A DNA stretch of 64,000 bases from an uncultured Anaerolineales bacterium. GTDB taxonomy: Bacteria; Chloroflexota; Anaerolineae; CG2-30-64-16. The DNA lies in the NCBI GenBank assembly GCA_964513075.1, contig CAZELR010000008.1, positions 23,876 through 87,875 on the forward strand, given 5' to 3'. Both the position numbers and the translations under genes were made by a program. The notes under the pieces are model-generated. The model had not been told where the DNA came from. It saw only the letters and a program-made list of their open reading frames with translations, and ran no database searches. Of this stretch, positions 2,780 through 16,901 are shown piece after piece (the stretch's first letter is position 1; every line of letters begins with the position of its first letter).

Positions 2780-3169
2780 CTACGCTCCCGCGCCCGGTAT
2801 CCCCGCCGGCAGGGTAATCCGCACGACACGGCCCTCCGCCTCCAGCTCCTCCGGGGCCAGCACCGCGTTGGCGTCGCAGATGCGCCAGAACTGCTCAGGA
2901 TCGCCGAGGGCGCGGGCAGCCAGGGTATCCAGCCGGTCGCCCTGGGCCATCACGACCTCCTGCAACAGAGCATACGTCTCGGGTGGGGGAATGAAGCGCC
3001 GGCGCACGTAGGCCACCGGCGTGCCATCCGCTCGCGTGAGCACCGCGATCTCGACGCCGTGATAGCGGCTGGTGGGCGGAAACTGCGGCGCCGCGCCCCC
3101 GGCGCCGCCCAGCAGCGCCTGCAACGCCATGAATGGCGCCGCTGCGTTGGGGTCGACAATTCCACTCAT
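2780..3169 (-). CDS. LysM-like phage tail protein X (gpX) family
   Basis: 129 aa with the C-terminal DRLDTLAARALGDPEQFWRICDANAV LysM-like motif. It overlaps the next gene by 4 bp. Confidence 0.6.
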   Translation of the reverse strand: MSGIVDPNAAAPFMALQALLGGAGGAAPQFPPTSRYHGVEIAVLTRADGTPVAYVRRRFIPPPETYALLQEVVMAQGDRLDTLAARALGDPEQFWRICDANAVLAPEELEAEGRVVRITLPAGIPGAGA

Positions 3170-3816
3170 GGGAGACCTCCCAGTCCAAGGGTACTGAGCG
3201 TCCCGGCACCGCTGCGGGCCGCCAACTGCTCCTTCTGCTGCTGATAGGCCATGTAGAGGCTGCCCCCTTTCCCGCCGAAGCCCAGGTCATCCACGCTGAG
3301 CACGCGCATCCCTACACTCACCTTGGCCCGGATCGGGTTGAGGGCCGGGTCGAATGCCTCTTCGGTGATGCTGAATTCGGTGATGCGGACCGGCACCACC
3401 CGGTTCTTGCTCCAGACGAACAACGTCAGGCTGCCGATCATCGGCGCAATCTCCAGGGTCCCGCCCTGTGCCTTGGCATTGGCCGCCGTGAGCTGCGCCG
3501 TGGTCGGATAGACCAGCGTCTCCAGCGCTGCGAGCTGCGGGTGGATGCCCACCTCGGCCGCCTGCGCGTCCCCTGCAGCCAGCAGGTCGGTCGCGTCGAT
3601 CTCGGCCTCCAGCTTAAGGGTCTCGACCGGCGGCCCTTTCAACCGCAGTGCCTCCGAGCGGTCCGTGCTCTCGCCCGGCGACTTGGGCGCCAGCGAGCGT
3701 GTCAGCGTGTCCGGGTTGTATTGCAGCGCGATGACCCGCCGAACCACGCCGCTGTCCGGGTCGATCAGGACGATGCCGCCTTTCAAGAGGCGGGGGGAGT
3801 TGGTAAAAGTGGTCAT
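3166..3816 (-). CDS. Tail tube-family protein (second tube paralogue or tube initiator)
   Basis: 216 aa. IVLIDPDSGVVRRVIALQYNPDTL resembles the gp19/tube-fold signature. It is translationally coupled to its flanks. Confidence 0.5.
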   Translation of the reverse strand: MTTFTNSPRLLKGGIVLIDPDSGVVRRVIALQYNPDTLTRSLAPKSPGESTDRSEALRLKGPPVETLKLEAEIDATDLLAAGDAQAAEVGIHPQLAALETLVYPTTAQLTAANAKAQGGTLEIAPMIGSLTLFVWSKNRVVPVRITEFSITEEAFDPALNPIRAKVSVGMRVLSVDDLGFGGKGGSLYMAYQQQKEQLAARSGAGTLSTLGLGGLP

Positions 3817-5258
3817 GGCGCACTCACCGCTTCATCTGTGCTTTCTGCCTGGCTTGCCGGCGCACCGGGCGCCGCACCTGGGCCAACGCCCGGATTGGGA
3901 CTCTGGCCCGCCGCAGGTGCGGGCGCAGGTGTCACAATCTGCACCGTTGCCTCGTCGGTGTTCGTATTGCCCCGCACGCTGTCGCGCACCTGCACGGTCA
4001 CGCTGCCGGCCTGGTTCCCTGCCGTGAGCACGCCAGTGCGCGCATCGATGGTGCTGCCGAGCGCCGCTCCCTGGATGCTGAAACGCAGCGCGTGCCCCGC
4101 GGGCAACGTGCCGGGCAAGGTGTCGGCGATGACGGTGGTGCGGCTGAGCGTGCGCGCGTTGGTTGTGGGCGGAATGACGGCCGGCGTGGCGCGCGCCCCG
4201 GTGATGGCCGGCTGCCCCCTATAGGGATCGGTGTGTTCCTCGCCGTTGACGCTCGTGGCAAACTCTAGATCGTTCCCCACGACGCGCAGCGTGCGCACAT
4301 GCGACACGTCGCTGATCTTGTTCCACTGGGCTGCCTGCCGGCAGAACCAGTGAAGCTCTTGGGTGACGCTGAAGCTCACGGGAAGGGTATGCGCCGGTGT
4401 GGGATTGGACGCACTGGTAACGAAATCGCCCGCATTCACCAGCGAACGCTCCAAGGTGACGCTGTCGTGCGTGCCGCCAAGCTCGCCGTTTGTAATGAAC
4501 CAGTTCTGGCCGTTGGCAGGCGCAGCCGGCAGATTCCGCGTAGCCAGAGTGAACAAGCCGAAAGGTGTGGGAAGGGTGTGGCTAGTGCCAGTCGGATTCG
4601 GCAGCGCCGGGAACTGCTCTCCTACCGGCACATTCTCCAGCGAGCTAGTCAAGTTGTCGGCGCTGGTGAAAGCGTGATCGAACAGCGCGCCATAGACGGT
4701 GTTGGCGCTGGACGGCGCACCGGCATCCCGGGTGCGGTTGATGCCGGTGGGGTGGGAGCACAGAACAAGCTCTGCCAAGGCCGTACTGCTCGACCCATCA
4801 GCGAGCGTCTGACTGGCATGCACCTGGATGGTGCCGCCGGTTTGCGTGGCGCCGAAGGTGATAGCTCCCCCTGTGCTGATCCGCGTGCCGTTAGCAACCT
4901 GGGCCGTACCTGCGGCCAGCGACCAGGCCACGGCGCCGGGCAAATTCGCAGGCACTGTGGTGGCCATCACCTGGGTGATGCCGCACAACGGCACTTGCAC
5001 CGCGGTGCTGCCCGTAGTAAAAGCAACACCACTCAATGCCGCCGCGGCGAGCGCTGTCTGCGCTGGCGCGGGCGTCGCTTCCGCGCCTTCTCCCTCAGCC
5101 TGACCATGGCCTGTTGTGAACAGCTTGGCCGGCCGGTTGATGCTCAGTCTGGCCGATGCCAGGCCAGGCGCGGGATGCAGGACAGACGTCGCAGCAGTTT
5201 CAGTCTGTCGAACCAAGCGTGCGGCATGCATGCCGATCGAATGCTGCGCGTGTCCCAT
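3813..5258 (-). CDS. Hypothetical T/S/G-rich protein with a C-terminal Big_2-like Ig domain (tail fibre or cargo candidate)
   Basis: 481 aa of beta-rich low-complexity composition. The C-terminal FSIQGAALGSTIDARTGVLTAGNQAGSVTVQVRD resembles bacterial Ig-like group 2. Confidence 0.45.
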   Translation of the reverse strand: MGHAQHSIGMHAARLVRQTETAATSVLHPAPGLASARLSINRPAKLFTTGHGQAEGEGAEATPAPAQTALAAAALSGVAFTTGSTAVQVPLCGITQVMATTVPANLPGAVAWSLAAGTAQVANGTRISTGGAITFGATQTGGTIQVHASQTLADGSSSTALAELVLCSHPTGINRTRDAGAPSSANTVYGALFDHAFTSADNLTSSLENVPVGEQFPALPNPTGTSHTLPTPFGLFTLATRNLPAAPANGQNWFITNGELGGTHDSVTLERSLVNAGDFVTSASNPTPAHTLPVSFSVTQELHWFCRQAAQWNKISDVSHVRTLRVVGNDLEFATSVNGEEHTDPYRGQPAITGARATPAVIPPTTNARTLSRTTVIADTLPGTLPAGHALRFSIQGAALGSTIDARTGVLTAGNQAGSVTVQVRDSVRGNTNTDEATVQIVTPAPAPAAGQSPNPGVGPGAAPGAPASQAESTDEAVSAP

Positions 5259-5267
5259 CTTGCGTCT

Positions 5268-6134
5268 CTACACTTTCTTAGCCGTCTCTTTGACGGTGTT
5301 TGTTGGGCCGGCCTGGCCGATGCTGCTTTTATCGATGTCAACTTCGTACTTGATGATCGCGGTCTGTCCGTCCCGTAAATGAAGCGGATCGTAGGCCGCC
5401 AGGACGAACTTGGCCGAGTACTTCAGCGGAAAATCCTCGCTTTTGAGATCCTTGCGACACCATCCCGGCGCGTCTGCGATCACCAACTTGTCGTCGGTCG
5501 CCGTCTTGATCTCGTGGACGGGAGGTCCATCATCCCCATTCTTGGTGAAAGTCTGTCCGCGGCCCTCAGCCTTGCGATCCACCAGCCGTTTAGCCGATAA
5601 CTGGCTCGACTTGCCCCGATCCAAGTGGAAATGCACCTGGTGGACGTTGGCTATACTGCCGCCAGTTGTGTCGTTGTAGGGTCCCGGCTTGTTGAGCGTG
5701 AGATCGCACAGATCCTCTTTGGCCGGGTAGCCGCCCACGGCCCCGGTTGGACTAGTGACCAGGGTGATGTTGTCGACGTGTGGGTCGCCACTGCCAACCT
5801 GATATTGGGCCTTGTCACCGGGTGCTGTGACCTGCTCCTCCAGCATCGGTTGATCATTTTCCGCCCCCACCTGCGCTTGGTCGACCGCGGGGGCCGCCGC
5901 TTCCAGCTCCACCGCGGTGGCATCTTGCGGCATCGGCGCGCCACCGGCCCGCGTCACCGGCAGCCGGCCCAGCGCTGCCGCCGCAAGCGATGCTGCGCCG
6001 GGCCGTTCCGTAGCCGTATGCTCAGCTCCGCTGCGATCATGCAGCGAACGAAAGGCCAGGCGGCTGGGTACCAGCGGCTCCGACCGTCGAACCATCGCGA
6101 TCCGCGGCCGCGCCAGTTGCGTGAACTCGCTCAT
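5268..6134 (-). CDS. Hypothetical protein, eCIS cargo/effector candidate
   Basis: 288 aa. An N-terminal Ala/Pro-rich disordered leader of about 100 aa is followed by a roughly 190-aa globular domain with no motif I recognise. Its start overlaps the stop of the upstream small gene (ATGA). Confidence 0.5.
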   Translation of the reverse strand: MSEFTQLARPRIAMVRRSEPLVPSRLAFRSLHDRSGAEHTATERPGAASLAAAALGRLPVTRAGGAPMPQDATAVELEAAAPAVDQAQVGAENDQPMLEEQVTAPGDKAQYQVGSGDPHVDNITLVTSPTGAVGGYPAKEDLCDLTLNKPGPYNDTTGGSIANVHQVHFHLDRGKSSQLSAKRLVDRKAEGRGQTFTKNGDDGPPVHEIKTATDDKLVIADAPGWCRKDLKSEDFPLKYSAKFVLAAYDPLHLRDGQTAIIKYEVDIDKSSIGQAGPTNTVKETAKKV

Positions 6135-6429
6135 GAAACTGACCTTTCCGTCGCACCAGTCGGGCGACTCAGTTGCGTGAGGCCCTGGTGCAACGCCTGA
6201 TAGACTGCCTCTACCGCGCCCACGCCCACGGCCGCACCGGCCGCACCGGGGGCCAATGTAAACCGGCCGGAAGGCGTCAGCTCCACTCCGACGCCGTCAG
6301 CCAAGCCAGCTGGCAGACCGCGTTCGAGAATCAAGCGTGCCAACTCAGTTTCCAACGCGGCGGCAATCGCGTGCCGGTCGCCGGCCGGAAAGCCGTGCAA
6401 CACCAATTCATCGATCTCAATCGTCACGT

Positions 6430-6433
<4 letters not shown>
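6131..6433 (-). CDS. Small hypothetical protein coupled to the AAA+ ATPase
   Basis: 100 aa ORF with 4-bp overlaps at both ends inside the operon. Confidence 0.45.
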
Positions 6434-8243
<1,810 letters not shown>

Positions 8244-8247
<4 letters not shown>

Positions 8248-9548
8248 GTGATCTTCACCTTGGGGCTGGCGAACTTGCCGGTCCCGTCGACGCTCAAAAT
8301 ACTCTCTGCACCGTCCACCTGCACCGTCACCAGGTAATCCCCCGTCTCGACATTGCTGAACGCGAAATCGATGGCCGCGGTTTCGGTCGCAAGGCCGGTG
8401 ATTCCATTATCGCGCGGGGCCGGGAAGCTGTATGAGCGCGCGGGACGATCTTCCGGCGCATCGAGCTCATACAGAAACAGCGTCACCCGCTGGACCTTGC
8501 CCACCGCAGGGGTAAATTTGATATTAAGCGTCCCGGTGGCTGCGGCGACGGACGCCGGCACGGTGACAACCGGGTGCAGGACGAGGGCGGCCGCGTTGGA
8601 CTCGACCCCGCGATGCGGCACGCCAGGGTCCGGCTCGCCCATCAACACCTCCTGCACCACCTGCACGCCCAGCACACCGGCTCGCAAGCCGGCGATTCCC
8701 ACCAGCGGGAAGGTGATGCGGTTTGGCGTGACCGTGAGGCTCGGGGGCGGGACGAATGCCTCTCCCAGCCGCACACGCGTCACTTCGCCCTTCAGGCTGC
8801 TGCCGGCGATTTCAACCGTGCTGGCTGCCGTGATCCGCGGGTCGGCCGGCAGGGGCGCGGTGGAAGCCACGGCCGCGATCTGCGGCCGCACCAACGGCAG
8901 GACGATGCTCTTGTACTTCAACACCGGCAGCGCCGAGCGGGTGGATTTCTGACTCTCGATCAGGACCACCGAGGCACGGTACGTCGCGGTCAGCCGGTAA
9001 TGCGTCTGAAACGCAGCCCAGAGCTTGGACAACTCCTCCGCACCCAGCGCTTCAGGCGTGATCTTCACCTGTTCCACTTGGTCGGCCAAGTCGGCCGCGA
9101 CGAGCGTCATAAACGCAGGGGGAAGCTGTGCGCCGGTGACCGGCGATGGAAGCTCCAACGCCTTGCGGATGGCCTCACGGCTGAGCCCCGGGGTCTCGTG
9201 CAAGACCTGCATCGCATAACCCAGCAGGATCTCGGCTACAAAGTCATCACCCCCATAGGCCGACAGCAGATAATGCAGGTCCAACGCCAGGGGCGGGTTG
9301 GCGATGCGGGCGCCCAACGCGTCCCTGGCTGGCAGCGCGTGATTGCGCCACCCCTGATTTGGCGTCACCTGATACAAAAACAGATTGAGCTGCGGCTGCT
9401 CGTTGGGACCGGTGGCGATCATGTCCGGCGGCTTGGTGGTGACTCGAACAACGCCGACGGCTGCAGCCAAGTCGTGTTGGATCACGCCATTATTCAGCAG
9501 ATCCCGCAGCACCGCAGTGGTTGCGGCGATGGCCAGTGCACTGCTCAT
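8244..9548 (-). CDS. DUF4255 (Pvc16/Afp16-like) tail terminator/cap protein with a C-terminal extension
   Basis: An N-terminal TAVLRDLL...LNLFLYQVTPNQGWRN matches the DUF4255 signature. Confidence 0.7.
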
Positions 9549-10279
9549 GGTTGCCCTCCGCTGTCGCCGCGCCGGCCCTCGGTGCTCAGATAGTCGGCGA
9601 GCGACGTTCGTTTCGCAGCCGGCTGGGAGGAGGTCGCCGCTTTAGGGCCAGGCGCCGGTGCGGCCCGCACCTCGATGCGACCGATATGCACATGGATCGT
9701 GGGCTCCTGCAGCGCCGGCGGTTCAGAGGCAAGCGCCTGCGCCTGATCGCGCGCCCTATATACTGTAATCCTATCCGTACTGCTTGTTTCTACCGCTGGC
9801 CGGACGTCCTTGGGGCGAATGGCTATGCGCACGGAGTCGCGCGGCGCGGCTCCAGCCGGTGACAGCGCCAGGGTGCGCCGTTCGAGCCGATCCCCCAGCG
9901 GCGCCCCATCGCGCACGGTCAGCGCAGGCCGCAGCCGCCCCAGCTGAACCGGCAGGAGCGAGTCGGGGCGTGTCGTCACCTGAAGTGCAGTCCGGGCGGC
10001 AACTTGGGCTCCGGCGGCCGGAGTCAGCTGTGGCGGCTCACCGCGGGCAGACGGAGCTTGTCCGCCTGCCAGACGCCTCCCAGCCTCGTCGACGGCCAAC
10101 TCATCGAAATCGCTCGCGCTACCCAGCGGCGCCACGTATGGCGCTACCACGTCTGTGGCGCCGGCATCACGGGCGCCACGTGTGGCGCGTTGATAGACGA
10201 TCGGCAGCAGAGGCCGGATCGCCGCATCCACGCCCACTGTGCGCCGTGCCAGATCTGCCAGGTAATTCATCGCTGCCAT
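9545..10279 (-). CDS. Hypothetical Ala/Arg/Pro-rich protein with a C-terminal HIGRIEVRA motif (possible tape-measure-like or assembly protein)
   Basis: 244 aa of low complexity. It lies between the tube and cap genes with a 4-bp overlap. Confidence 0.5.
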   Translation of the reverse strand: MAAMNYLADLARRTVGVDAAIRPLLPIVYQRATRGARDAGATDVVAPYVAPLGSASDFDELAVDEAGRRLAGGQAPSARGEPPQLTPAAGAQVAARTALQVTTRPDSLLPVQLGRLRPALTVRDGAPLGDRLERRTLALSPAGAAPRDSVRIAIRPKDVRPAVETSSTDRITVYRARDQAQALASEPPALQEPTIHVHIGRIEVRAAPAPGPKAATSSQPAAKRTSLADYLSTEGRRGDSGGQP

Positions 10280-10286
10280 GAGTGCC

Positions 10287-11084
10287 TCATCCCTGCACCA
10301 TCTCGATATAGCCCTGTCGCCGCGCCGGGGTCAAAGCCAGGATGTCCGCTTCATGCCAACCGTAAGCACGGGCCAGGATATCAACTTCGCGTAACAGTTG
10401 TCTGGCCTGGGCCGCAATCTCCGCCCAGAAGAACCCGGCAATGTCGAACGGCGACTGCCAGCGGTGACCGCAAGCCGGACACGCCAGGTCCAGCAGGATC
10501 TCCGCCTGCGGATCGTGTGCGGCAGCCGTCGCCCCGATCGCAGCGCTCACCTCGGCCGCAATATCCTCGGGAAGCTCAGCGCCCCCAACGGCAACCCCGT
10601 CCAGATTAGCCGCCAACACGCACCGGGTCAGCAGCGCCCGCTCCGCCGCCGCAGCCACAGCCAGATCCCCGACGGCCTCCAGGTCTCCGGCGGCCGGCAG
10701 TCGAAAAGTCACCTGGCTGCCCGGCCGCGACCACTGGAACGAAGCCTTTCCCGCATCCGCGACCTGCGTCTCTTCGGATAGTCGCAGGTCGCGCGTCCGG
10801 GCAGTGAACTCCAACGCCTCGTCGCAGGCCGGGCAGTGTGCGGTCGCCGCCAGTTCCGGGCCGAACGTCCGCTCGCGAGCCTCCAGCAGCAGTGCATCCC
10901 TGCATCCCACCGTCAGCCCGGCCGGCGCGTCCGGGGCCAACTCAGGACACGCTGCAGCCAGGATGGCCAGCCCACGGCCGCCGCTGTTGCGCTGCGCCCC
11001 ACGCTCCCAGACATCGAGAATGTCGTCGCCCGTGAGCGCTCTTACGGGAGTGAACGTCCTCACCGGGGTGAGCGCTTGCATCAT
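10287..11084 (-). CDS. Hypothetical protein with two CPAC motifs (zinc-ribbon-like)
   Basis: The start is moved to the internal MMQALTPV so that it does not overlap the tube gene. It carries C-P-A-C-(x)n-C-P-A-C. Confidence 0.5.
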   Translation of the reverse strand: MMQALTPVRTFTPVRALTGDDILDVWERGAQRNSGGRGLAILAAACPELAPDAPAGLTVGCRDALLLEARERTFGPELAATAHCPACDEALEFTARTRDLRLSEETQVADAGKASFQWSRPGSQVTFRLPAAGDLEAVGDLAVAAAAERALLTRCVLAANLDGVAVGGAELPEDIAAEVSAAIGATAAAHDPQAEILLDLACPACGHRWQSPFDIAGFFWAEIAAQARQLLREVDILARAYGWHEADILALTPARRQGYIEMVQG

Positions 11085-11094
11085 CACAAATCCG

Positions 11095-11616
11095 CTACGG
11101 TTCAACGAACAACGGCTCGGACGGCTCGACGACATCGTAGTCCCGTTCCCAACCCTCGTTCTCCAGCTTGATGCTCTGGATCAACACCGCATTGGCGTTG
11201 GCATCCAGGTCGGCCTGGGCCTGGAACTCAGAGACCCAGCAGCGGTAGACCTTATACGACAGGGCGAGCTGGCCGGCCTCGTTGAAGACATCGATGATGA
11301 TGTCCTTACGAAAGTCCTTCAGCGAGACCTCGGCGCCCAGTCCCGACCCGAAATTCCATACTTTATTGGCCCACTGCTCGAATTCCTTGTCGTGGGTCAC
11401 GCCCCGCTCCAGGGTGATGGCTTCGTATTCGGTGCGGCCGGGCGACTTCCGGCTGCTGCTGGGGTCGCCGCCTTCACGGTGCTTGACCACTTCGGTGGTG
11501 CGCTTGAGCGCGCTCACCTTGCTGATTCCGGCGACATAGCGGCCATCCCACTTAACGCGGAACTTGAAATTCTTGTAGGGATCGAAACGTTGTGCGTTGA
11601 CACTGAATTGAGCCAC
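11095..11616 (-). CDS. Contractile tail tube protein (T4 gp19-like/Afp1-like)
   Basis: 173 aa with FDPYKNFKFRVKWDGRYVAGISKVSAL, the canonical tube motif. Confidence 0.85.
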   Translation of the reverse strand: MAQFSVNAQRFDPYKNFKFRVKWDGRYVAGISKVSALKRTTEVVKHREGGDPSSSRKSPGRTEYEAITLERGVTHDKEFEQWANKVWNFGSGLGAEVSLKDFRKDIIIDVFNEAGQLALSYKVYRCWVSEFQAQADLDANANAVLIQSIKLENEGWERDYDVVEPSEPLFVEP

Positions 11617-11628
11617 GGCTGCCTCCCC

Positions 11629-13158
11629 TTACGCCTGGAGTTGTCCGGCTATCTGCTGGATCTTGAGGATCACGAACTCGGCCGGTTTGAGCGGAGCGAA
11701 GCCCACAAGGATGTTGACGATGCCCCGGTTGCGATCACTTTGAGTGGTCGTGTCTTTGTCGCACTTCACGAAATAGGCGTCGCGCGGGGTGACGCCTTGA
11801 AACGCGCCCTGGCGGAACAGGTCATGCATAAAGGCACCGACGTTGAGGCGGATTTGCGCCCACAACGGCTCGTCGTTGGGCTCGAAGACCACCCACTTGA
11901 GGCCGCGGTAGAGGCTCTCCTCCAGGAACAACGCAAGCCGGCGCACCGGCACGTATTTCCACTCCGAGCCGCGCTCGTCGTTGCCTTGCAGGGTGCGCGC
12001 CCCCCAAACCACGTTGCCGTAAACGTTGAAATTGCGGATGCAGTTGATCGCCTGAATGTTGAGGGCGCCGTTCTCCAGGTCGGTCAACGGCGCAGTCACG
12101 CCGCTGACACCCGTCAGGCTGGCCTCTGTTCCCGCTGGCGCCTTCCACACGCCGCGACTTACATCCGTGCGTGCGTAGATGCCGGCAACGAAGCCCGAAG
12201 GCGGGAAAGCCCGCAGCCGGTTCTCCTGTTTCGGATCGGCCGCCTTGACCCAGGGGAAGTATAACGCCGCATTAATTGCGTCCGCGCCGGTCAAACTGTT
12301 GTTGAGGCCGGCATTTAGGCTGGAGAAGGTGGCGGATTCGGCGCTGTCGACTATGAGGAAGGCCCGGTGATCACGAGCGAACTTCTGAAGTTGTCCCACC
12401 GTGGCCGCCTCTGTTTCGCCCGGCACGATCAACAGATTGAAGAGGTCGACCCGGTCTAGCAGATTGACGCCACCGCTGCCACCCCCCGCCTGCAGCGCGG
12501 TCTCGAACGCCCCGGCCGGATCACTGGGAACCAACACCGTACCGTCCGAGCCGCTTCCCAGCATTGCCGGGGTCGCGATATCCGCACTGAAAGTGGGCGC
12601 CGGGCTTTCGGGCACGATCAGCGCCGCATCGACGAGGGCCGATCCTGCCGACAGCACATGCGGTGCGTAGCGCGCATCTTTGCTGTCCAACGAGAGGTTC
12701 TCGAACGACTCGACGACCACAGGTGTTGCGACGCCCACCGGCTTATAGGCCACCTGCAGGCGGAACCGCGTCAGGTCATCTGCGCGGCGCTTGATCGTGA
12801 CCCCGTAGGCCTCGGCCCAGTCGCCGGCGCTGCGCGCCGTCACTTTGAGCTTGCCGTCGAGGGTCGCTTCGGCCACGGCCTGATCACCGGCCACCAGACG
12901 AATGATGTAGGCCTGCTGGCCACCGTTGTTGAAGAAGTGGTAGATGCTGTAACCGAGCAGGCTCCGGACGTCAAGCCCGCCGTAGGTGCGCTCGAAGTCA
13001 GACCAACTCAAAACAAGCTGGGCGCGGTCGGTGGGCCCCTTGGCCGCCCAGCCCACAAACGCGGCGATCGAGGTCGCCACCCCACCGATGGTCCGCACGC
13101 CGCTGGGGATCTCCTCGACATACACCCCAGGGTAGGTCGGTGTCACTGGCATGCTCAT
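11629..13158 (-). CDS. Contractile tail sheath protein
   Basis: 509 aa with N-terminal PGVYVEEIPSGVRTIGGVATSIAAFVG, the canonical sheath signature. An AGGAGG RBS lies 5 bp upstream. Confidence 0.9.
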   Translation of the reverse strand: MSMPVTPTYPGVYVEEIPSGVRTIGGVATSIAAFVGWAAKGPTDRAQLVLSWSDFERTYGGLDVRSLLGYSIYHFFNNGGQQAYIIRLVAGDQAVAEATLDGKLKVTARSAGDWAEAYGVTIKRRADDLTRFRLQVAYKPVGVATPVVVESFENLSLDSKDARYAPHVLSAGSALVDAALIVPESPAPTFSADIATPAMLGSGSDGTVLVPSDPAGAFETALQAGGGSGGVNLLDRVDLFNLLIVPGETEAATVGQLQKFARDHRAFLIVDSAESATFSSLNAGLNNSLTGADAINAALYFPWVKAADPKQENRLRAFPPSGFVAGIYARTDVSRGVWKAPAGTEASLTGVSGVTAPLTDLENGALNIQAINCIRNFNVYGNVVWGARTLQGNDERGSEWKYVPVRRLALFLEESLYRGLKWVVFEPNDEPLWAQIRLNVGAFMHDLFRQGAFQGVTPRDAYFVKCDKDTTTQSDRNRGIVNILVGFAPLKPAEFVILKIQQIAGQLQA

Positions 13159-13374: not shown

Positions 13375-14475
13375 TCACTGAATCTCAAACGTCCAGAACC
13401 AAGTCACCGGCTCCCCGCTTTTCGGCGTGATCACGATCTGGACGCTGTGGGGACCTTTTTGCAAATCTGCGCCGCCCGGCCATCTGTTGCCGTGCTCGGA
13501 GAAACGCCACACGGTGCAATCCGGCTCACCGCCGCCGAAAACACAGTAGCCCGCGTTGCGTTCGGTGCGCTGGTGCACCGTCCGGTTGCTGTCATTGATC
13601 GTGAAGCTAACGGAGTCGATGCCCGCGCCATCGGTCCGCCCGACGTTGGTGTCGAAAACTTCCACCTGAAACACGATACGATCGCGGAAGACCATCGGGT
13701 TGCTGACCTCGTATGACTCGAAGCCGGGCAGCGCCACGTTGCATCCCCCCTTCACGTTCCGGCTGTTGCGGATGTTCGGGGTTTCCGAGCAACCGCCATC
13801 AACGGGCAAGATCGCGATCGCTGGAATTCGCGTTGGGGTCGCGGGCGGTGGGGTGGCCGTGACCGGTCGCGGGGTGGGAGTCGGAGGCGCGCTGCCGGCA
13901 GGTAGTGATGCCACGTCAAGATTGCATGCGACAAACTGCGCGCCCGCGCTGATCCACCCGCGCTGCCCGCCGGCATCCACCTGCACTTCGATCCATTGAC
14001 CGCTGGGGAACCCGCGACTCACAAACGATAGCGGTGTCAACGCAGCACCCTGCGGAAGGGTGCGCAGCGGCGGATTGAAGACCGTGCCGGGCCCGCCGCG
14101 CAGGTTCAATCCTGCCGACATGACCTCGCAGCGCGGAGCCGTGATTGCCGGCGTCTCTGGCGGCCGGGTCGCGGTGGCCTCGACGACCACAGGCGGCTCA
14201 GTGGGCGCCGCCTCGCCGGGAGTCGACGTAGCCCCGTTGTCGGCCGGAACAACATCAGTCGAAGCGCTCCCTGCGCCGGCTTGCACCACCTGGGTGGCGG
14301 CCACCGCGGCATCGACGGTCGCCTGGAGGCGCCCCTGCGCGGATGCGGTCGCAACAACCGCTGCATCTACGGTCGCCTGCACATTGGCCTCGCCTCCGCT
14401 GCCGCAACCCGCCAACACAGCGGCAAAAAGGACGAACCCTATCAGCCTGAGCCAAGCGCCCTTCTTCATCATCAC
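13375..14475 (-). CDS. Secreted lipoprotein with an SH3b-like domain
   Basis: Signal peptide plus lipobox (LAGC), a Thr/Pro-rich linker, and GLNLRGGPGTVF...GQWIEV, which is SH3b-like. Confidence 0.6.
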   Translation of the reverse strand: MMMKKGAWLRLIGFVLFAAVLAGCGSGGEANVQATVDAAVVATASAQGRLQATVDAAVAATQVVQAGAGSASTDVVPADNGATSTPGEAAPTEPPVVVEATATRPPETPAITAPRCEVMSAGLNLRGGPGTVFNPPLRTLPQGAALTPLSFVSRGFPSGQWIEVQVDAGGQRGWISAGAQFVACNLDVASLPAGSAPPTPTPRPVTATPPPATPTRIPAIAILPVDGGCSETPNIRNSRNVKGGCNVALPGFESYEVSNPMVFRDRIVFQVEVFDTNVGRTDGAGIDSVSFTINDSNRTVHQRTERNAGYCVFGGGEPDCTVWRFSEHGNRWPGGADLQKGPHSVQIVITPKSGEPVTWFWTFEIQ

Positions 14476-16901
14476 CCTCCGATCCCCTGCAACGCATCTT
14501 CCACCTGCTGCCTACCGGGTTGGCAGACAGCAGCGACGATCTTCTCGCCTAACGTGCGATCCTCCGGCAGCCTGCGCGCCTGTTCCTCGCAGCCGTCGAA
14601 GGCGCCGCGGGCCTCGCTGAGCAGGCTGGCTGCGCGGGTCCTGTCGCCCGCACGCAGGGCCAGATTGCCCTGCTGCAGCCTGGCGACGCCCAGGTAAGCG
14701 TAGCCCTGACCCAACAGCCGGTACTGCTTCAACTCGTCCAACGGCGCCAGAAGCAGACGCAGGTCCGCCGCCGCCCGCTCAAAGAGCTGCTCGGCCGCCA
14801 GGTCGCCGGCCTCGGGATCATCCAGTTGGTAGGTGGCGGTCGCCCGCGCCAGGGTGGCATTGGCCAGCGCCAATCGCGCTACCAATTCCATGCGCGTGTC
14901 TCGAGATGCGACGGACAGGCCAACCGCCTGTTTGTAGGCCGCCTCCGCCTGTTGGAGCAAGCCGTCTTCGACCAACTGGTCTGCAGGTGGAAGGGCTGCG
15001 GCGCTGCGCAGGTACGCGCCGCCCAGCACGATCGCCGCGCGCTCGCGTTGGGGGTTCAAGGCGAGCGCTTGCTCAGCAGCCATCTCAGCCTCTGCGTTGC
15101 GCCCCAGGAACAGCGCCTGCCGCGCGATAAAATAGTAGAGCACGTCGCCTCCGCCGCCCGGCCGGCGCGCCGTTGGGGTTGTCGACTCCACGGTCCGCAG
15201 CAGCGCCAATGCCTCTTCGTGACGTCCCAACACATCGTCGCGCAGCGCTAATAGCACCCCGAACAGCAGGGACGCGCGGTCCCGAATCGGGCCGGCGGCC
15301 GCCTCGCGCGCCAGGCTGTCGGCCGATGCCAGGTTAGCCGCCAACACGAGATCGTCTCCCAACTGGTAGCGACCGATGGTCTCGTTGGCTTCGGGACGTT
15401 GGCGAGCCGACACATAAAACTCCTGCACCAGGTGTTCCGTATCCCCGTCAGACGCCAGGTGGCTATAGAGCACCACGTCGGCGCCAACGCGGGCCGCCAG
15501 CGCCTCGGCAGCCGCGGCTCGCTGCTCGGCAGTGGCCCCGACAATCGCGCCGAGCCGGACCCGCTTCTGCATAAACGACATCCCGTCGTGCCAGATGCCT
15601 ACGCGCTGACCGGGCTCCAGCGCGTCGTTCGCCGCGGCCAGGGCGTTCACCATCCAGTCGCGGATCAACCGGCCATCCGGCGTCGCGCTTGCCGCGCCGG
15701 CCGCGTCCAGGCGGGGCACTTCGGCCACCGCGATATTAAGCGTGTTCGTCGCATCCATGGTCGTGGGCACGGCCATGTTGTAGACGCCAAAGAGGACAAG
15801 GATGAGCAAAAGCAGGATCCCTGCCGGCAGTGCTATCTTCTTGCGCCAATTGAGGGGTCCCGGCTCCGGCTGGCGCCACAACTGCCCTTCGGCGGATCGC
15901 ATGTAGAGGACCGGCGTGGCCCATTCCTCAGCGCAGCAGCCGGTGAAGAGCGCCTTGCGCGCCTCGGCCAGGGCTGAGTCTACCCCAGCGCCGTTGGCCA
16001 GCGCGGCGTAGAAGCTGCGTGCCAACGCAATCGCGGCCTGATCACTGATCGCCGTGCGCATGGCGATCACCGCGGGCACGCCGCCGCGCACCAAGCGCTG
16101 CGCCACGCCGGCATATGGGTCGCGGTCGGAAGATTCCGCACCCTGGCACGCGTTGAGCAACACCAGGCGCAACTGATCATGCCCCTGCAGCAGGGTGCTG
16201 AACGCCTGGCCGGTCACCGCCTGGGCCGCACCGTCCTCAGCCTGAAACATCAGCACGCTGTCATTGCCCGCGGGATCGAAGGCGCCATGGCCGAGGAAGT
16301 GCAGGATATGATACTCCTGCTGCTGCAACTGCCGCTGCAGCGCCTCCAGTGTGGGCGGCTCCAGCCGGTCGAGGGTGACGATGCCGCGGCTCCGCAGCTC
16401 CTCCAGCGCAGCGGACAAATTGGCCCACTCACGCTCGACATCCAGCACGGGGTAACCGGCCGGACTGGCAATCACGGCCAATACTCGCAGACGCAGCCCA
16501 GGCGCCAGATTAGGGGGCGGCTCGGGCAAATCCATGTAGCGGACCAGGGGGGTCTCGGACGAAAGCGCGAGGAAGCGGTCGCGTGAGCCGTCGTAGATCA
16601 GCTCCCACGGCAGGTTGGCCAGTTCGGGCACTTGTGTCAGCCGCAGGCGGAGGCGCAGCCCACGGTCCTGCTGCTGGGCCATATCCAGGCTGCGCCGCCA
16701 GCACGTCAGCACCTCGCCGCGGAAGGTCGCATCAAAGAGCTGAGCGCCAACCTCCTGGCTGGCAGCCGCCACGTCGAGGCTCTCGAGCGGCAGCAGGTCC
16801 GCCCGGGCCTCGCCTGCGGGCGAGCTGAGCACCTGGCCGCGGTAGCCCTGTGCAGTGCGCTCGATCTCCAGATCGAAGTTGAGATATCCTGCTTCTGCCA
16901 T
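14472..16901 (-). CDS. CHAT-domain (caspase-like) protease with a transmembrane segment and C-terminal TPR repeats
   Basis: 809 aa. The N-terminus (LNFDLEIERTAQGYRGQVLSSPAGEA) is typical of CHAT proteins. The His/Cys dyad sits in HILHFLGHG ... LVLLNACQGAES. The TM helix is KIALPAGILLLLILVLFGVY. TPR-like repeats occupy the C-terminal half. Confidence 0.8.
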   Translation of the reverse strand: MAEAGYLNFDLEIERTAQGYRGQVLSSPAGEARADLLPLESLDVAAASQEVGAQLFDATFRGEVLTCWRRSLDMAQQQDRGLRLRLRLTQVPELANLPWELIYDGSRDRFLALSSETPLVRYMDLPEPPPNLAPGLRLRVLAVIASPAGYPVLDVEREWANLSAALEELRSRGIVTLDRLEPPTLEALQRQLQQQEYHILHFLGHGAFDPAGNDSVLMFQAEDGAAQAVTGQAFSTLLQGHDQLRLVLLNACQGAESSDRDPYAGVAQRLVRGGVPAVIAMRTAISDQAAIALARSFYAALANGAGVDSALAEARKALFTGCCAEEWATPVLYMRSAEGQLWRQPEPGPLNWRKKIALPAGILLLLILVLFGVYNMAVPTTMDATNTLNIAVAEVPRLDAAGAASATPDGRLIRDWMVNALAAANDALEPGQRVGIWHDGMSFMQKRVRLGAIVGATAEQRAAAAEALAARVGADVVLYSHLASDGDTEHLVQEFYVSARQRPEANETIGRYQLGDDLVLAANLASADSLAREAAAGPIRDRASLLFGVLLALRDDVLGRHEEALALLRTVESTTPTARRPGGGGDVLYYFIARQALFLGRNAEAEMAAEQALALNPQRERAAIVLGGAYLRSAAALPPADQLVEDGLLQQAEAAYKQAVGLSVASRDTRMELVARLALANATLARATATYQLDDPEAGDLAAEQLFERAAADLRLLLAPLDELKQYRLLGQGYAYLGVARLQQGNLALRAGDRTRAASLLSEARGAFDGCEEQARRLPEDRTLGEKIVAAVCQPGRQQVEDALQGIGG

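What the first reader, a model, noticed from the sequence alone, without database searches (positions are those of the whole stretch)
5268..6134. Orphan protein with a ~100-aa disordered leader: candidate eCIS cargo
A 288-aa protein is coupled (ATGA) to the small gene next to the loading ATPase. It has a roughly 100-residue Ala/Pro/Gly-rich, probably disordered N-terminus, followed by a roughly 190-aa globular domain with no motif I recognise. Characterised PVC cargo proteins carry N-terminal disordered packing signals and sit near the Pvc15 ATPase. Position and architecture therefore fit a lumen-loaded effector of unknown activity.
Basis: inference. Interest (0 to 1): 0.7.

Follow-up and report, generated by a model that had tools for sequence, protein, structure and literature searches.

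The report
Leader-bearing cargo protein of an eCIS
This gene most likely encodes a protein that a phage-tail-like injection machine loads through a floppy N-terminal leader; that kind of cargo is already known, but its compact beta-sandwich payload domain is uncharacterised and may act on bacterial cell walls.

Summary
The anatomy is real. A 288-aa ORF (5268-6134, minus strand) overlaps the stop of a 100-aa gene by ATGA, and that gene overlaps the AAA+ ATPase of a complete eCIS operon. Residues 1-115 are Ala-rich with no predicted structure (pLDDT 38-53). Residues 118-288 form a confident all-beta sandwich (pLDDT mostly above 90).

It is not an orphan. There are 87 homologous clusters at 90% identity and 124 at 50%. 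Every context with enough flanking DNA is the same eCIS slot, between the ATPase plus small gene and the second tube gene.

That slot varies widely:
- In 49 other eCIS loci it spans about 0 to 8.2 kb.
- 34 of 49 hold DUF4157 (eCIS_core) genes, none holds this family, and about 10 are almost empty.

So the gene is not a structural part.

In 21 of 30 longer relatives the same C-terminal domain follows a full DUF4157 domain, the architecture of the proven AlgoCIS cargos Cgo1 and Cgo2. In 7 of 30 it also follows a peptidoglycan-binding module.

The window's leader keeps only a faint relic of the first DUF4157 motif. The window has no DUF4157 domain at all.

Verdict: the cargo reading is supported by comparative evidence. 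It is a new member of a known kind. The payload activity is unknown; a cell-wall target is my guess.

The parts
5268..6134 (-). Target gene: a 288-aa candidate eCIS cargo protein (stop codon at 5268-5270).
   Evidence: The ORF is. It has 87 homologs. dN/dS is 0.08-0.13 in the domain. The family is found only in eCIS slots.
5790..6134 (-). N-terminal leader, residues 1-115: Ala-rich, predicted unstructured, fast-evolving. I propose it is the loading sequence.
   Evidence: pLDDT is 38-53 with no DSSP elements. Composition and the absence of a TM segment are. dN/dS is 0.52-0.58. Family leaders run from 76 to 227 aa.
5955..5972 (-). Residues 55-60 (LGRLPV): a degenerate relic of the family motif GHDFGxVxV, which is the first motif of DUF4157/eCIS_core.
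   Evidence: The family consensus is. 11 of 76 members give a weak partial PF13699 hit. The target leader scores 11.1 bits against a leader profile built without it and its two closest relatives; 0 of 1000 shuffles reach that score.
5916..5927 (-). Residues 70-73 (QDAT): the counterpart of the family leader motif NDQT. D71 is invariant in all 76 aligned members.
   Evidence: Invariant column D71; leader listing; aligned by the leader profile.
5271..5789 (-). C-terminal all-beta sandwich domain (residues 116-288; folded core 118-288). It is an uncharacterised payload module.
   Evidence: AF2 model: 10-residue blocks with mean pLDDT 81-98, ten strands. No Pfam, NCBIfam, PHROG or PDB match. The residues conserved family-wide are Q166, R183, D202, D221, Y263 and K269 (that output numbers residues 3 too low).
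6131..6433 (-). Conserved small gene (100 aa), overlapping by 4 nt both the ATPase gene upstream and the target downstream.
   Evidence: Homologs of 84-127 aa sit at the same place in related loci. It has no family hit.
6430..8247 (-). Pvc15/Alg15-like AAA+ ATPase (605 aa), the presumed cargo loader.
   Evidence: PF00004 at 4e-27 and PF22977 (WHD) at 3e-16. The role of this ATPase class in loading comes from the literature.
3813..5258 (-). Second gene of the slot (481 aa): a second cargo candidate, a DUF4157-less form of a family that is usually fused to DUF4157.
   Evidence: Residues 76-441 are 53% identical to the C-terminal part of a 606-aa eCIS_core protein in L004. 9 of 15 homologs carry PF13699.
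3166..3816 (-). Second tube-family gene (216 aa). It marks the downstream edge of the variable slot.
   Evidence: PF19266 CIS_tube at 7.6e-5, below the curated cut-off. Conserved at this position in all related loci.
8244..9548 (-). Pvc16_N protein (434 aa; DUF4255, called the tail terminator protein in Geller 2021). Part of the eCIS context.
   Evidence: PF14065 at 2e-49.
11095..13158 (-). ORFs I read as the tube (173 aa) and sheath (509 aa) genes at the head of the operon. These two window ORFs were never scanned themselves.
   Evidence: ORFs. Assigned from gene order and from syntenic genes in related loci that carry PF06841 and PF04984/PF17482. As phmmer queries they found ORFs at those syntenic positions.

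Best explanation
The 288-aa protein is a cargo (effector) of the eCIS encoded around it.

Shown:
- It is a real, conserved gene, overlap-coupled to the small gene and through it to the AAA+ ATPase gene.
- It has a ~115-aa leader with no predicted structure and a ~171-aa beta-sandwich domain.
- Its family occurs only in the variable slot between the ATPase and the second tube gene.
- The same C-terminal domain is a portable module that in other genomes follows a full DUF4157 domain, and in some also a peptidoglycan-binding domain.

Inferred, by analogy with AlgoCIS Cgo1/Cgo2 and the PVC payloads:
- The disordered leader is recognised by the AAA+ ATPase.
- The ATPase unfolds the protein and feeds it into the inner-tube lumen during assembly.
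- Sheath contraction expels it into a target.

The leader looks like a decayed derivative of the DUF4157-type leader. Only a faint LGRLPV...QDAT relic of the GHDFGxVxV...NDQT motifs is left. The window has no DUF4157 domain anywhere. That fits the experimental report that the disordered NTD is required for loading and DUF4157 is not.

My most speculative step (about 35% confidence) is that the payload acts at the peptidoglycan layer of a bacterial target.
For: eCIS operon context. ATGA coupling and a Shine-Dalgarno-like motif.

Leader unstructured, domain confidently folded. No TM or Sec-like segment.

Context of the family:
- Eight fully read contexts are all in the same slot.
- 33 of 35 metagenomic loci have eCIS or DUF4157 neighbours; the other two contigs are too short to tell.

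The slot is variable and dispensable:
- In 49 complete slots from many phyla the length runs from -25 to 8244 bp. 34 hold DUF4157 ORFs, none holds this family, and about 10 are empty.
- Close relatives differ in the neighbouring gene. The window has a 481-aa gene. L087 has an unrelated 865-aa DUF4157 gene. L089 has several genes including a Col-Pyo_DNase.

Modularity:
- PF13699 lies N-terminal to the same domain in 21 of 30 longer relatives. PG_binding_1 is present in 6 of 30, an OmpA-like domain in 1 of 30 and thioredoxin in 2 of 30.
- In L003-L005, truncated QRKC/HDFSRV leaders are fused to unrelated C-terminal domains.

The leader relic is beyond chance: 11.1 bits, reached by 0 of 1000 shuffles.

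Literature:
- Cgo1 and Cgo2 (NTD-DUF4157-CTD) fill the tube lumen (PMC8894135).
- The NTD is required for loading, DUF4157 is dispensable, and the AAA+ protein mediates loading (bioRxiv 10.64898/2026.05.27.728243).
- DUF4157 marks eCIS toxins (PMC8213781; PMC11297309).
Against: - There is no direct evidence of loading, delivery or toxicity.
- The C-terminal domain has no enzymatic signature. Across 68 diverse copies the Cys and His residues are not conserved. Its only structural neighbours are generic Ig-like sandwiches, a fold more typical of binding modules than of toxins.
- The family is unusually constant in its own sub-lineage and can be the sole slot gene (L113). That would also fit an accessory part.
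- The leader relic is at the detection limit; the 86%-identical relative scores -1.9 bits.
- A charge-hydropathy test does not call the leader disordered.
- No similarity was found between the leaders of the two slot genes of the window, unlike the cargo pairs of AlgoCIS, PVC and MAC.
Confidence: 0.65

Rival explanations
1. It is a lineage-specific structural or assembly part of the particle, such as a lumen plug, a decoration or a receptor-binding module. On this reading its Ig-like sandwich is a binding or packing domain, not an effector.
For: The fold is a generic Ig-like beta sandwich, common in phage decoration and binding proteins. The family is present in every sampled locus of its own sub-lineage, often directly after the small gene, and is the only slot gene in L113. 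No catalytic residues are evident.
Against: It is absent from 49 of 49 complete slots of eCIS loci with the same ATPase-to-tube layout, about 10 of which have nothing in the slot. It matches no solved or predicted tail component. Its position within the slot varies. The domain occurs as the C-terminal module behind DUF4157 and PG-binding domains, which is a cargo architecture. A 115-aa unstructured N-terminus is atypical for structural parts.
Confidence: 0.12
2. It is an accessory factor for the neighbouring cargo, such as a chaperone, adaptor or immunity-like partner, and is not itself delivered.
For: The literature raises the idea that elements of cargo islands can act in trans as chaperones (PMC11297309). 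The family co-occurs with the 481-aa family in the window, L004, L093, L100 and L101.
Against: The neighbours differ even between close relatives while this gene stays. It can be alone in the slot (L113). It carries its own cargo-type leader, and its domain is fused in cis to DUF4157 leaders elsewhere.
Confidence: 0.1
3. It is a producer-side cell-wall factor. The domain acts on the producer's own peptidoglycan to help release particles, rather than on a target.
For: Two unrelated peptidoglycan-binding modules (PG_binding_1 and OmpA-like) are fused to the domain in 7 of 30 longer relatives. eCIS release by lysis, and a possible contribution of toxins to that lysis, are discussed in PMC8213781.
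Against: There is no signal peptide or TM segment to reach the periplasm. The leader and the DUF4157 architecture are those of loaded cargo. No holin- or endolysin-like partner is evident in the slot.
Confidence: 0.08
4. The leader is not translated, and the real product is a 221-aa protein starting at Met68, as a gene caller chose for the 86%-identical relative.
For: The cluster of P0002 contains 221-aa calls. L089 is annotated from the internal Met. The leader's dN/dS is only moderately below 1.
Against: The long ORF is open in all three relatives, and the ATGA overlap with the small gene is seen in the window and in L089, with the same 4-nt overlap of the called genes in L087. A Shine-Dalgarno-like motif precedes the first ATG. 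dN/dS is below 1 at p=0.004. The part upstream of Met68 holds the relic of the family motif. All 75 homologs have leaders of 76-227 aa.
Confidence: 0.05

Closest known systems
[quoted passage not shown]
   Same: They are encoded in the eCIS cluster. They have a disordered N-terminal domain followed by a variable C-terminal domain. Longer relatives of the target have exactly the NTD-DUF4157-CTD layout. Cgo1 and Cgo2 fill the tube lumen, and only the NTD is needed for loading.
   Different: The target lacks the DUF4157 domain (no Pfam hit, no HExxH) and keeps at most a relic of its first motif. Its C-terminal domain is an unrelated beta sandwich. Loading has not been shown.
PVC payloads Pdp1 and Pnf with N-terminal packing signals (Photorhabdus)
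   Same: They have a disordered N-terminal signal, and loading depends on the Pvc15-type AAA+ ATPase. This is as reported in the bioRxiv PROCIS paper and in the abstracts of the two Pvc15 papers listed.
   Different: I never fetched the PVC signal sequences, so no comparison was made. The literature reports that loading sequences are not conserved between systems. [quoted passage not shown]
eCIS-associated toxins (EATs) marked by DUF4157/eCIS_core, PF13699 (Geller 2021; Danov 2024)
   Same: The genomic signature matches: inside an eCIS operon, a disordered N-terminus, and relatives and syntenic neighbours in related loci that carry DUF4157.
   Different: The target and its neighbour carry no DUF4157, and none is present in the 64-kb window. 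Toxicity is untested, and the payload has no recognisable toxin domain.
BDI_2459, the CIS cargo of Parabacteroides distasonis that is active only when sent to the periplasm (PMC12210884)
   Same: It is a precedent for eCIS cargo that acts in the cell envelope. That fits the PG-binding fusions in the target's family.
   Different: BDI_2459 has DUF4157 and lacks the disordered NTD. That is the reverse of the target.

Membership tests
eCIS cargo with an N-terminal disordered loading sequence (Cgo1/Cgo2, Pdp1/Pnf type) | Encoded within or next to an eCIS operon that has a Pvc15-type AAA+ ATPase. | tested here: met
   The gene lies two genes downstream of the ATPase and is linked to it by overlapping start/stop codons, inside an operon that runs from sheath to gp25.
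eCIS cargo with an N-terminal disordered loading sequence (Cgo1/Cgo2, Pdp1/Pnf type) | An N-terminal region of at least ~50 aa predicted to be disordered, with no Sec signal or TM segment. | tested here: met
   Residues 1-115 have pLDDT 38-53 and no secondary structure. 66% of residues are disorder-promoting and the maximum KD19 is 0.78. Caveat: the charge-hydropathy test is negative.
eCIS cargo with an N-terminal disordered loading sequence (Cgo1/Cgo2, Pdp1/Pnf type) | Modularity: the leader type is shared by different payload domains, and the payload domain is found behind different leaders. | tested here: met
   Truncated QRKC/HDFxxV leaders sit on unrelated C-terminal domains in L003-L005. 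The same C-terminal domain sits behind full PF13699 in 21 of 30 longer relatives.
eCIS cargo with an N-terminal disordered loading sequence (Cgo1/Cgo2, Pdp1/Pnf type) | Physical presence in the tube lumen, dependent on the leader and the ATPase, with release on contraction. | not testable with these tools
   This needs mass spectrometry or cryo-ET of purified particles and of mutants.
eCIS cargo with an N-terminal disordered loading sequence (Cgo1/Cgo2, Pdp1/Pnf type) | A C-terminal domain with effector activity on a target cell. | tested here: inconclusive
   No known toxin or enzyme domain or fold was found. PG-binding fusions in 7 of 30 relatives hint at a cell-wall role.
DUF4157 / eCIS_core domain proteins (PF13699) | A match to PF13699 above the gathering score. 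| tested here: not met
   The target has no hit even at E<=1. Only 11 of 76 family members give weak partial hits, the best at 1.3e-5.
DUF4157 / eCIS_core domain proteins (PF13699) | The HExxH metallopeptidase-like motif. | tested here: not met
   The 288-aa sequence has no HExxH.
DUF4157 / eCIS_core domain proteins (PF13699) | Descent from a DUF4157 leader, shown by a relic of the first motif (GHDFxxVxV). | tested here: inconclusive
   The target leader scores 11.1 bits against the family leader profile and no shuffle out of 1000 reaches that. Its 86%-identical relative scores only -1.9 bits.
Structural tail or baseplate components of contractile injection systems | Sequence or fold similarity to a known tail, tube, fibre or baseplate protein. 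| tested here: not met
Structural tail or baseplate components of contractile injection systems | Conserved presence across loci that share the same machine architecture. | tested here: not met
   The family is in 0 of 49 complete ATPase-to-tube slots, and about 10 of those slots are empty.
Cys/His peptidoglycan enzymes with beta-rich folds (for example YkuD L,D-transpeptidases) and M23 peptidases | Conserved catalytic Cys/His residues or HxH/HxxxD metal ligands. | tested here: not met

The most novel reading that the evidence does not exclude
The C-terminal beta sandwich is a new kind of eCIS payload that acts on the peptidoglycan layer of bacterial targets. This lineage is also a natural experiment: both cargo genes have shed DUF4157 and kept only a short relic motif within a disordered leader. 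That would define a minimal, DUF4157-independent loading signal usable for engineering.
Probability: 0.2. Interest if true: 0.55.

Novelty: new member of a known kind. Interest (0 to 1): 0.4.

Why it matters
eCIS particles are being developed as programmable protein-delivery devices. What defines a loadable cargo, and what most natural cargos do, are still open questions.

This locus adds three things:
- An uncharacterised payload domain family with no Pfam model: about 124 clusters at 50% identity among 1.84 billion representative proteins.
- A clear case of a mid-operon cargo slot directly after the ATPase, which turns over even between close relatives.
- Natural short forms in which DUF4157 has been lost while the disordered leader remains. 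This agrees with recent experiments showing that the leader, not DUF4157, is needed for loading.

The recurrent fusion to two unrelated peptidoglycan-binding modules gives a testable lead on function. None of this changes the current picture of eCIS biology. It extends it.

Tried and rejected
- Pfam, NCBIfam and PHROGs scans of the target gave nothing. Pfam at E<=1 on all 76 family members gave only partial eCIS_core hits and noise.
- A profile search of PDB sequences gave 0 hits at E<=10.
- The AFDB50 library was not available, so the domain was never compared with predicted structures at large.
- I considered a Cys-His enzyme, because of the 'APGWC' and 'HQVHFH' motifs (YkuD-like or M23-like). 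I rejected it because these residues are not conserved across the wider family.
- I looked for leader similarity between the two slot genes of the window. BLASTP found none. A visual 'RLx[VI]xR' resemblance could not be supported.
- I considered the 221-aa annotation starting at Met68 and rejected it.
- The window's organism could not be placed.
I could not test whether the conserved polar residues cluster, or whether Cys143 and Cys226 pair.

Full report
**Context.** The left 13 kb of the window is one minus-strand operon of an extracellular contractile injection system (eCIS). Reading from high to low coordinates it holds:
- sheath (11629-13158) and tube (11095-11616), assigned by synteny with related loci;
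- a T4_baseplate/hub-like protein (10287-11135);
- a 244-aa ORF (9545-10279);
- a Pvc16_N protein (8244-9548);
- an AAA+ ATPase with a WHD domain (6430-8247);
- a 100-aa ORF (6131-6433);
- the target (5268-6134);
- a 481-aa ORF (3813-5258);
- a CIS_tube protein (3166-3816);
- a tail-X-like ORF (2780-3169, weak Pfam hit), then ORFs I read from their sequences and gene order as gpD-like, spike, PAAR and gp25 genes.

The rest of the window is chromosomal (NusA, IF-2, LigA, formate-tetrahydrofolate ligase).

The 288-aa ORF starts with an ATG that overlaps the TGA of the 100-aa gene, and that gene overlaps the ATPase gene by 4 nt. A GGAAAGG motif lies 8 nt upstream of the start.

An AlphaFold2 model built on 76 aligned sequences gives two parts:
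- Residues 1-115 have pLDDT 38-53 and no secondary structure.
- Residues 118-288 form ten beta strands, with 10-residue blocks of mean pLDDT 81-98.

The leader is 20% Ala, 9% Pro and 7% Gly. It has no hydrophobic stretch, so no TM segment or Sec signal. A simple charge-hydropathy criterion does not classify it as disordered. The disorder call therefore rests on the AF2 confidence and on composition.

The gene is real. Against relatives that are 86% and 74% identical, dN/dS is 0.08-0.13 in the domain and 0.52-0.58 in the leader. The long ORF stays open in all three genomes, and the overlap with the small gene is kept. One gene caller started the 86% relative at Met68.

**It is not an orphan.** The word-indexed search found 87 clusters, with E-values from 1e-187 down to 1e-34. 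Most match only the C-terminal ~170 aa at 45-57% identity. The few that carry names are from Pyrinomonadaceae or Blastocatellia MAGs. An exhaustive profile search of 1.84 billion representatives found 124.

**Where the family lives.** Eight contexts read in full all place the gene between the ATPase plus small gene and the second tube gene. A metagenome scan with the family alignment returned 35 loci. In 33 of them the neighbours include eCIS core genes or DUF4157 ORFs, and the other two contigs are too short to say.

The position inside the slot varies. The gene can be first after the small gene, in the middle, or last before the tube gene. The number of DUF4157 genes sharing the slot ranges from none to seven or more. 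In L113 the family member is the only slot gene.

**The slot is a cargo island, not part of the machine.** I seeded an independent sample with the ATPase and marked genes locally. Among 49 loci from many phyla that cover the whole ATPase-to-tube interval:
- the interval runs from about 0 to 8.2 kb;
- 34 contain DUF4157 ORFs, usually starting right after the ATPase;
- about 10 contain nothing, or only the small gene;
- none contains the target's domain.

Even close relatives differ in the neighbouring gene. The window has the 481-aa gene. L087 has an unrelated 865-aa DUF4157 gene. L089 has four other genes, including a Col-Pyo_DNase.

The family's frequency in its own sub-lineage is therefore not measured.

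**The leader.** Family leaders are 76-227 aa and variable, but they share several motifs:
- an optional LQRKCxCGG...C..C motif;
- GHDFGxVxV;
- NDQTPxQSGGLxExF.

GHDFGxVxV is the start of the eCIS_core (DUF4157, PF13699) domain. 11 of 76 members give a weak partial hit to that model, and none has the HExxH core. In the same islands, other genes carry the same truncated leader on unrelated C-terminal domains.

The window's protein has only LGRLPV...QDAT at the corresponding place, and D71 is invariant in the family alignment. A leader profile built without the target and its two closest relatives scores it at 11.1 bits. None of 1000 shuffles exceeds 8.3 bits. The relic is real but at the limit of detection; the 86% relative scores -1.9 bits.

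**The payload domain is portable.** I scanned 30 longer representatives against Pfam:
- 21 have a full PF13699 domain N-terminal to the same beta sandwich;
- 6 also have PG_binding_1;
- 1 has an OmpA-like peptidoglycan-binding domain;
- 2 have thioredoxin.

This NTD-DUF4157-CTD layout is that of AlgoCIS Cgo1 and Cgo2. Those were shown by cryo-ET and mass spectrometry to fill the tube lumen and to leave on contraction (PMC8894135). For those proteins the disordered NTD is required for loading, DUF4157 is dispensable, and the AAA+ protein mediates loading (bioRxiv 10.64898/2026.05.27.728243). DUF4157 is an established marker of eCIS-associated toxins (PMC8213781; PMC11297309).

The 481-aa neighbour behaves the same way. 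Its residues 76-441 are 53% identical to the C-terminal part of a 606-aa eCIS_core protein. 9 of its 15 homologs carry PF13699, while the closest ones do not. The window has no DUF4157 domain at all.

**What the payload does is not known.**
- It has no Pfam, NCBIfam, PHROG or PDB-sequence match.
- Foldseek finds nothing in PDB or BFVD.
- Across 68 diverse copies, the conserved polar residues are Q166, R183, D202, D221, Y263 and K269.
- The Cys and His residues that looked catalytic in the close family are not conserved.

Fusion to two unrelated peptidoglycan-binding modules suggests action at the cell wall. There are precedents for envelope-acting eCIS cargo (EAT10; BDI_2459). I hold this at about 35%.

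**Verdict.** The structural-component rival is weakened by the 0 of 49 result and by the fold searches. It is not excluded, because the family is constant in its own sub-lineage and the fold is a binding-type sandwich.

This is a new member of a known kind: eCIS cargo with a disordered N-terminal loading sequence. It has an uncharacterised payload domain, and both cargo candidates of the locus have lost DUF4157, which is a mildly interesting natural deletion.

Noticed in passing
window 6131-6433 (-): A 100-aa gene overlaps both the ATPase gene and the target by 4 nt. Counterparts of 84-127 aa, starting with a shared 'I(D/E)ELVLHGF..DR..I' motif, follow the ATPase in all related loci. A similar gene was detected in 13 of the 49 more distant loci. 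It has no family hit and its function is unknown.
   Followed up: partly
window 3813-5258 (-): The 481-aa neighbour is a DUF4157-less form of a family that is usually fused to eCIS_core. It is 53% identical to the C-terminal part of the 606-aa protein in L004. It ends in a Pro/Ala/Gly-rich low-complexity tail. It co-occurs with the target family in L004, L093, L100 and L101.
   Followed up: partly
window 1-64000: No DUF4157/eCIS_core domain was found anywhere in the window with a locally built profile. By contrast, 34 of 49 comparable eCIS loci carry at least one in the slot after the ATPase.
   Followed up: yes
L089 13358-13642 (+): In the 86%-identical relative, the same slot holds four other genes. 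One is a 94-aa Col-Pyo_DNase (PF21431) fragment or module. This shows rapid turnover of slot content and points to a bacterial target for that system.
   Followed up: no
window 13375-16901 (-): An 809-aa CHAT-domain (caspase-like, HetF-related) protein and a 366-aa SH3_3 protein lie directly upstream of the sheath gene on the same strand. They may be regulators or accessory factors of the eCIS.
   Followed up: no
window 9545-10279 (-): A 244-aa Ala/Pro/Arg-rich ORF lies between the baseplate-hub-like gene and the Pvc16_N gene. It has no family hit. Its C-terminal 'IHVHIGRIEVRA' motif resembles the N-terminal motif of the 100-aa gene. It may be a tape-measure-like or assembly protein.
   Followed up: no
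L061, L064, L067, L070, L075, L078, L082 (Streptomyces/Kitasatospora): In the actinobacterial loci the slot after the ATPase is filled by a single open frame of about 5.3-7 kb (stop to stop) that matches the DUF4157 profile. This contrasts with the many small genes in the acidobacterial loci.
   Followed up: no
A1 family alignment, C-terminus: Most family members end in a conserved 'KIGGAVxSPVKPKK' tail. The window's protein and its closest relatives lack it and end in 'TAKKV'.
   Followed up: no
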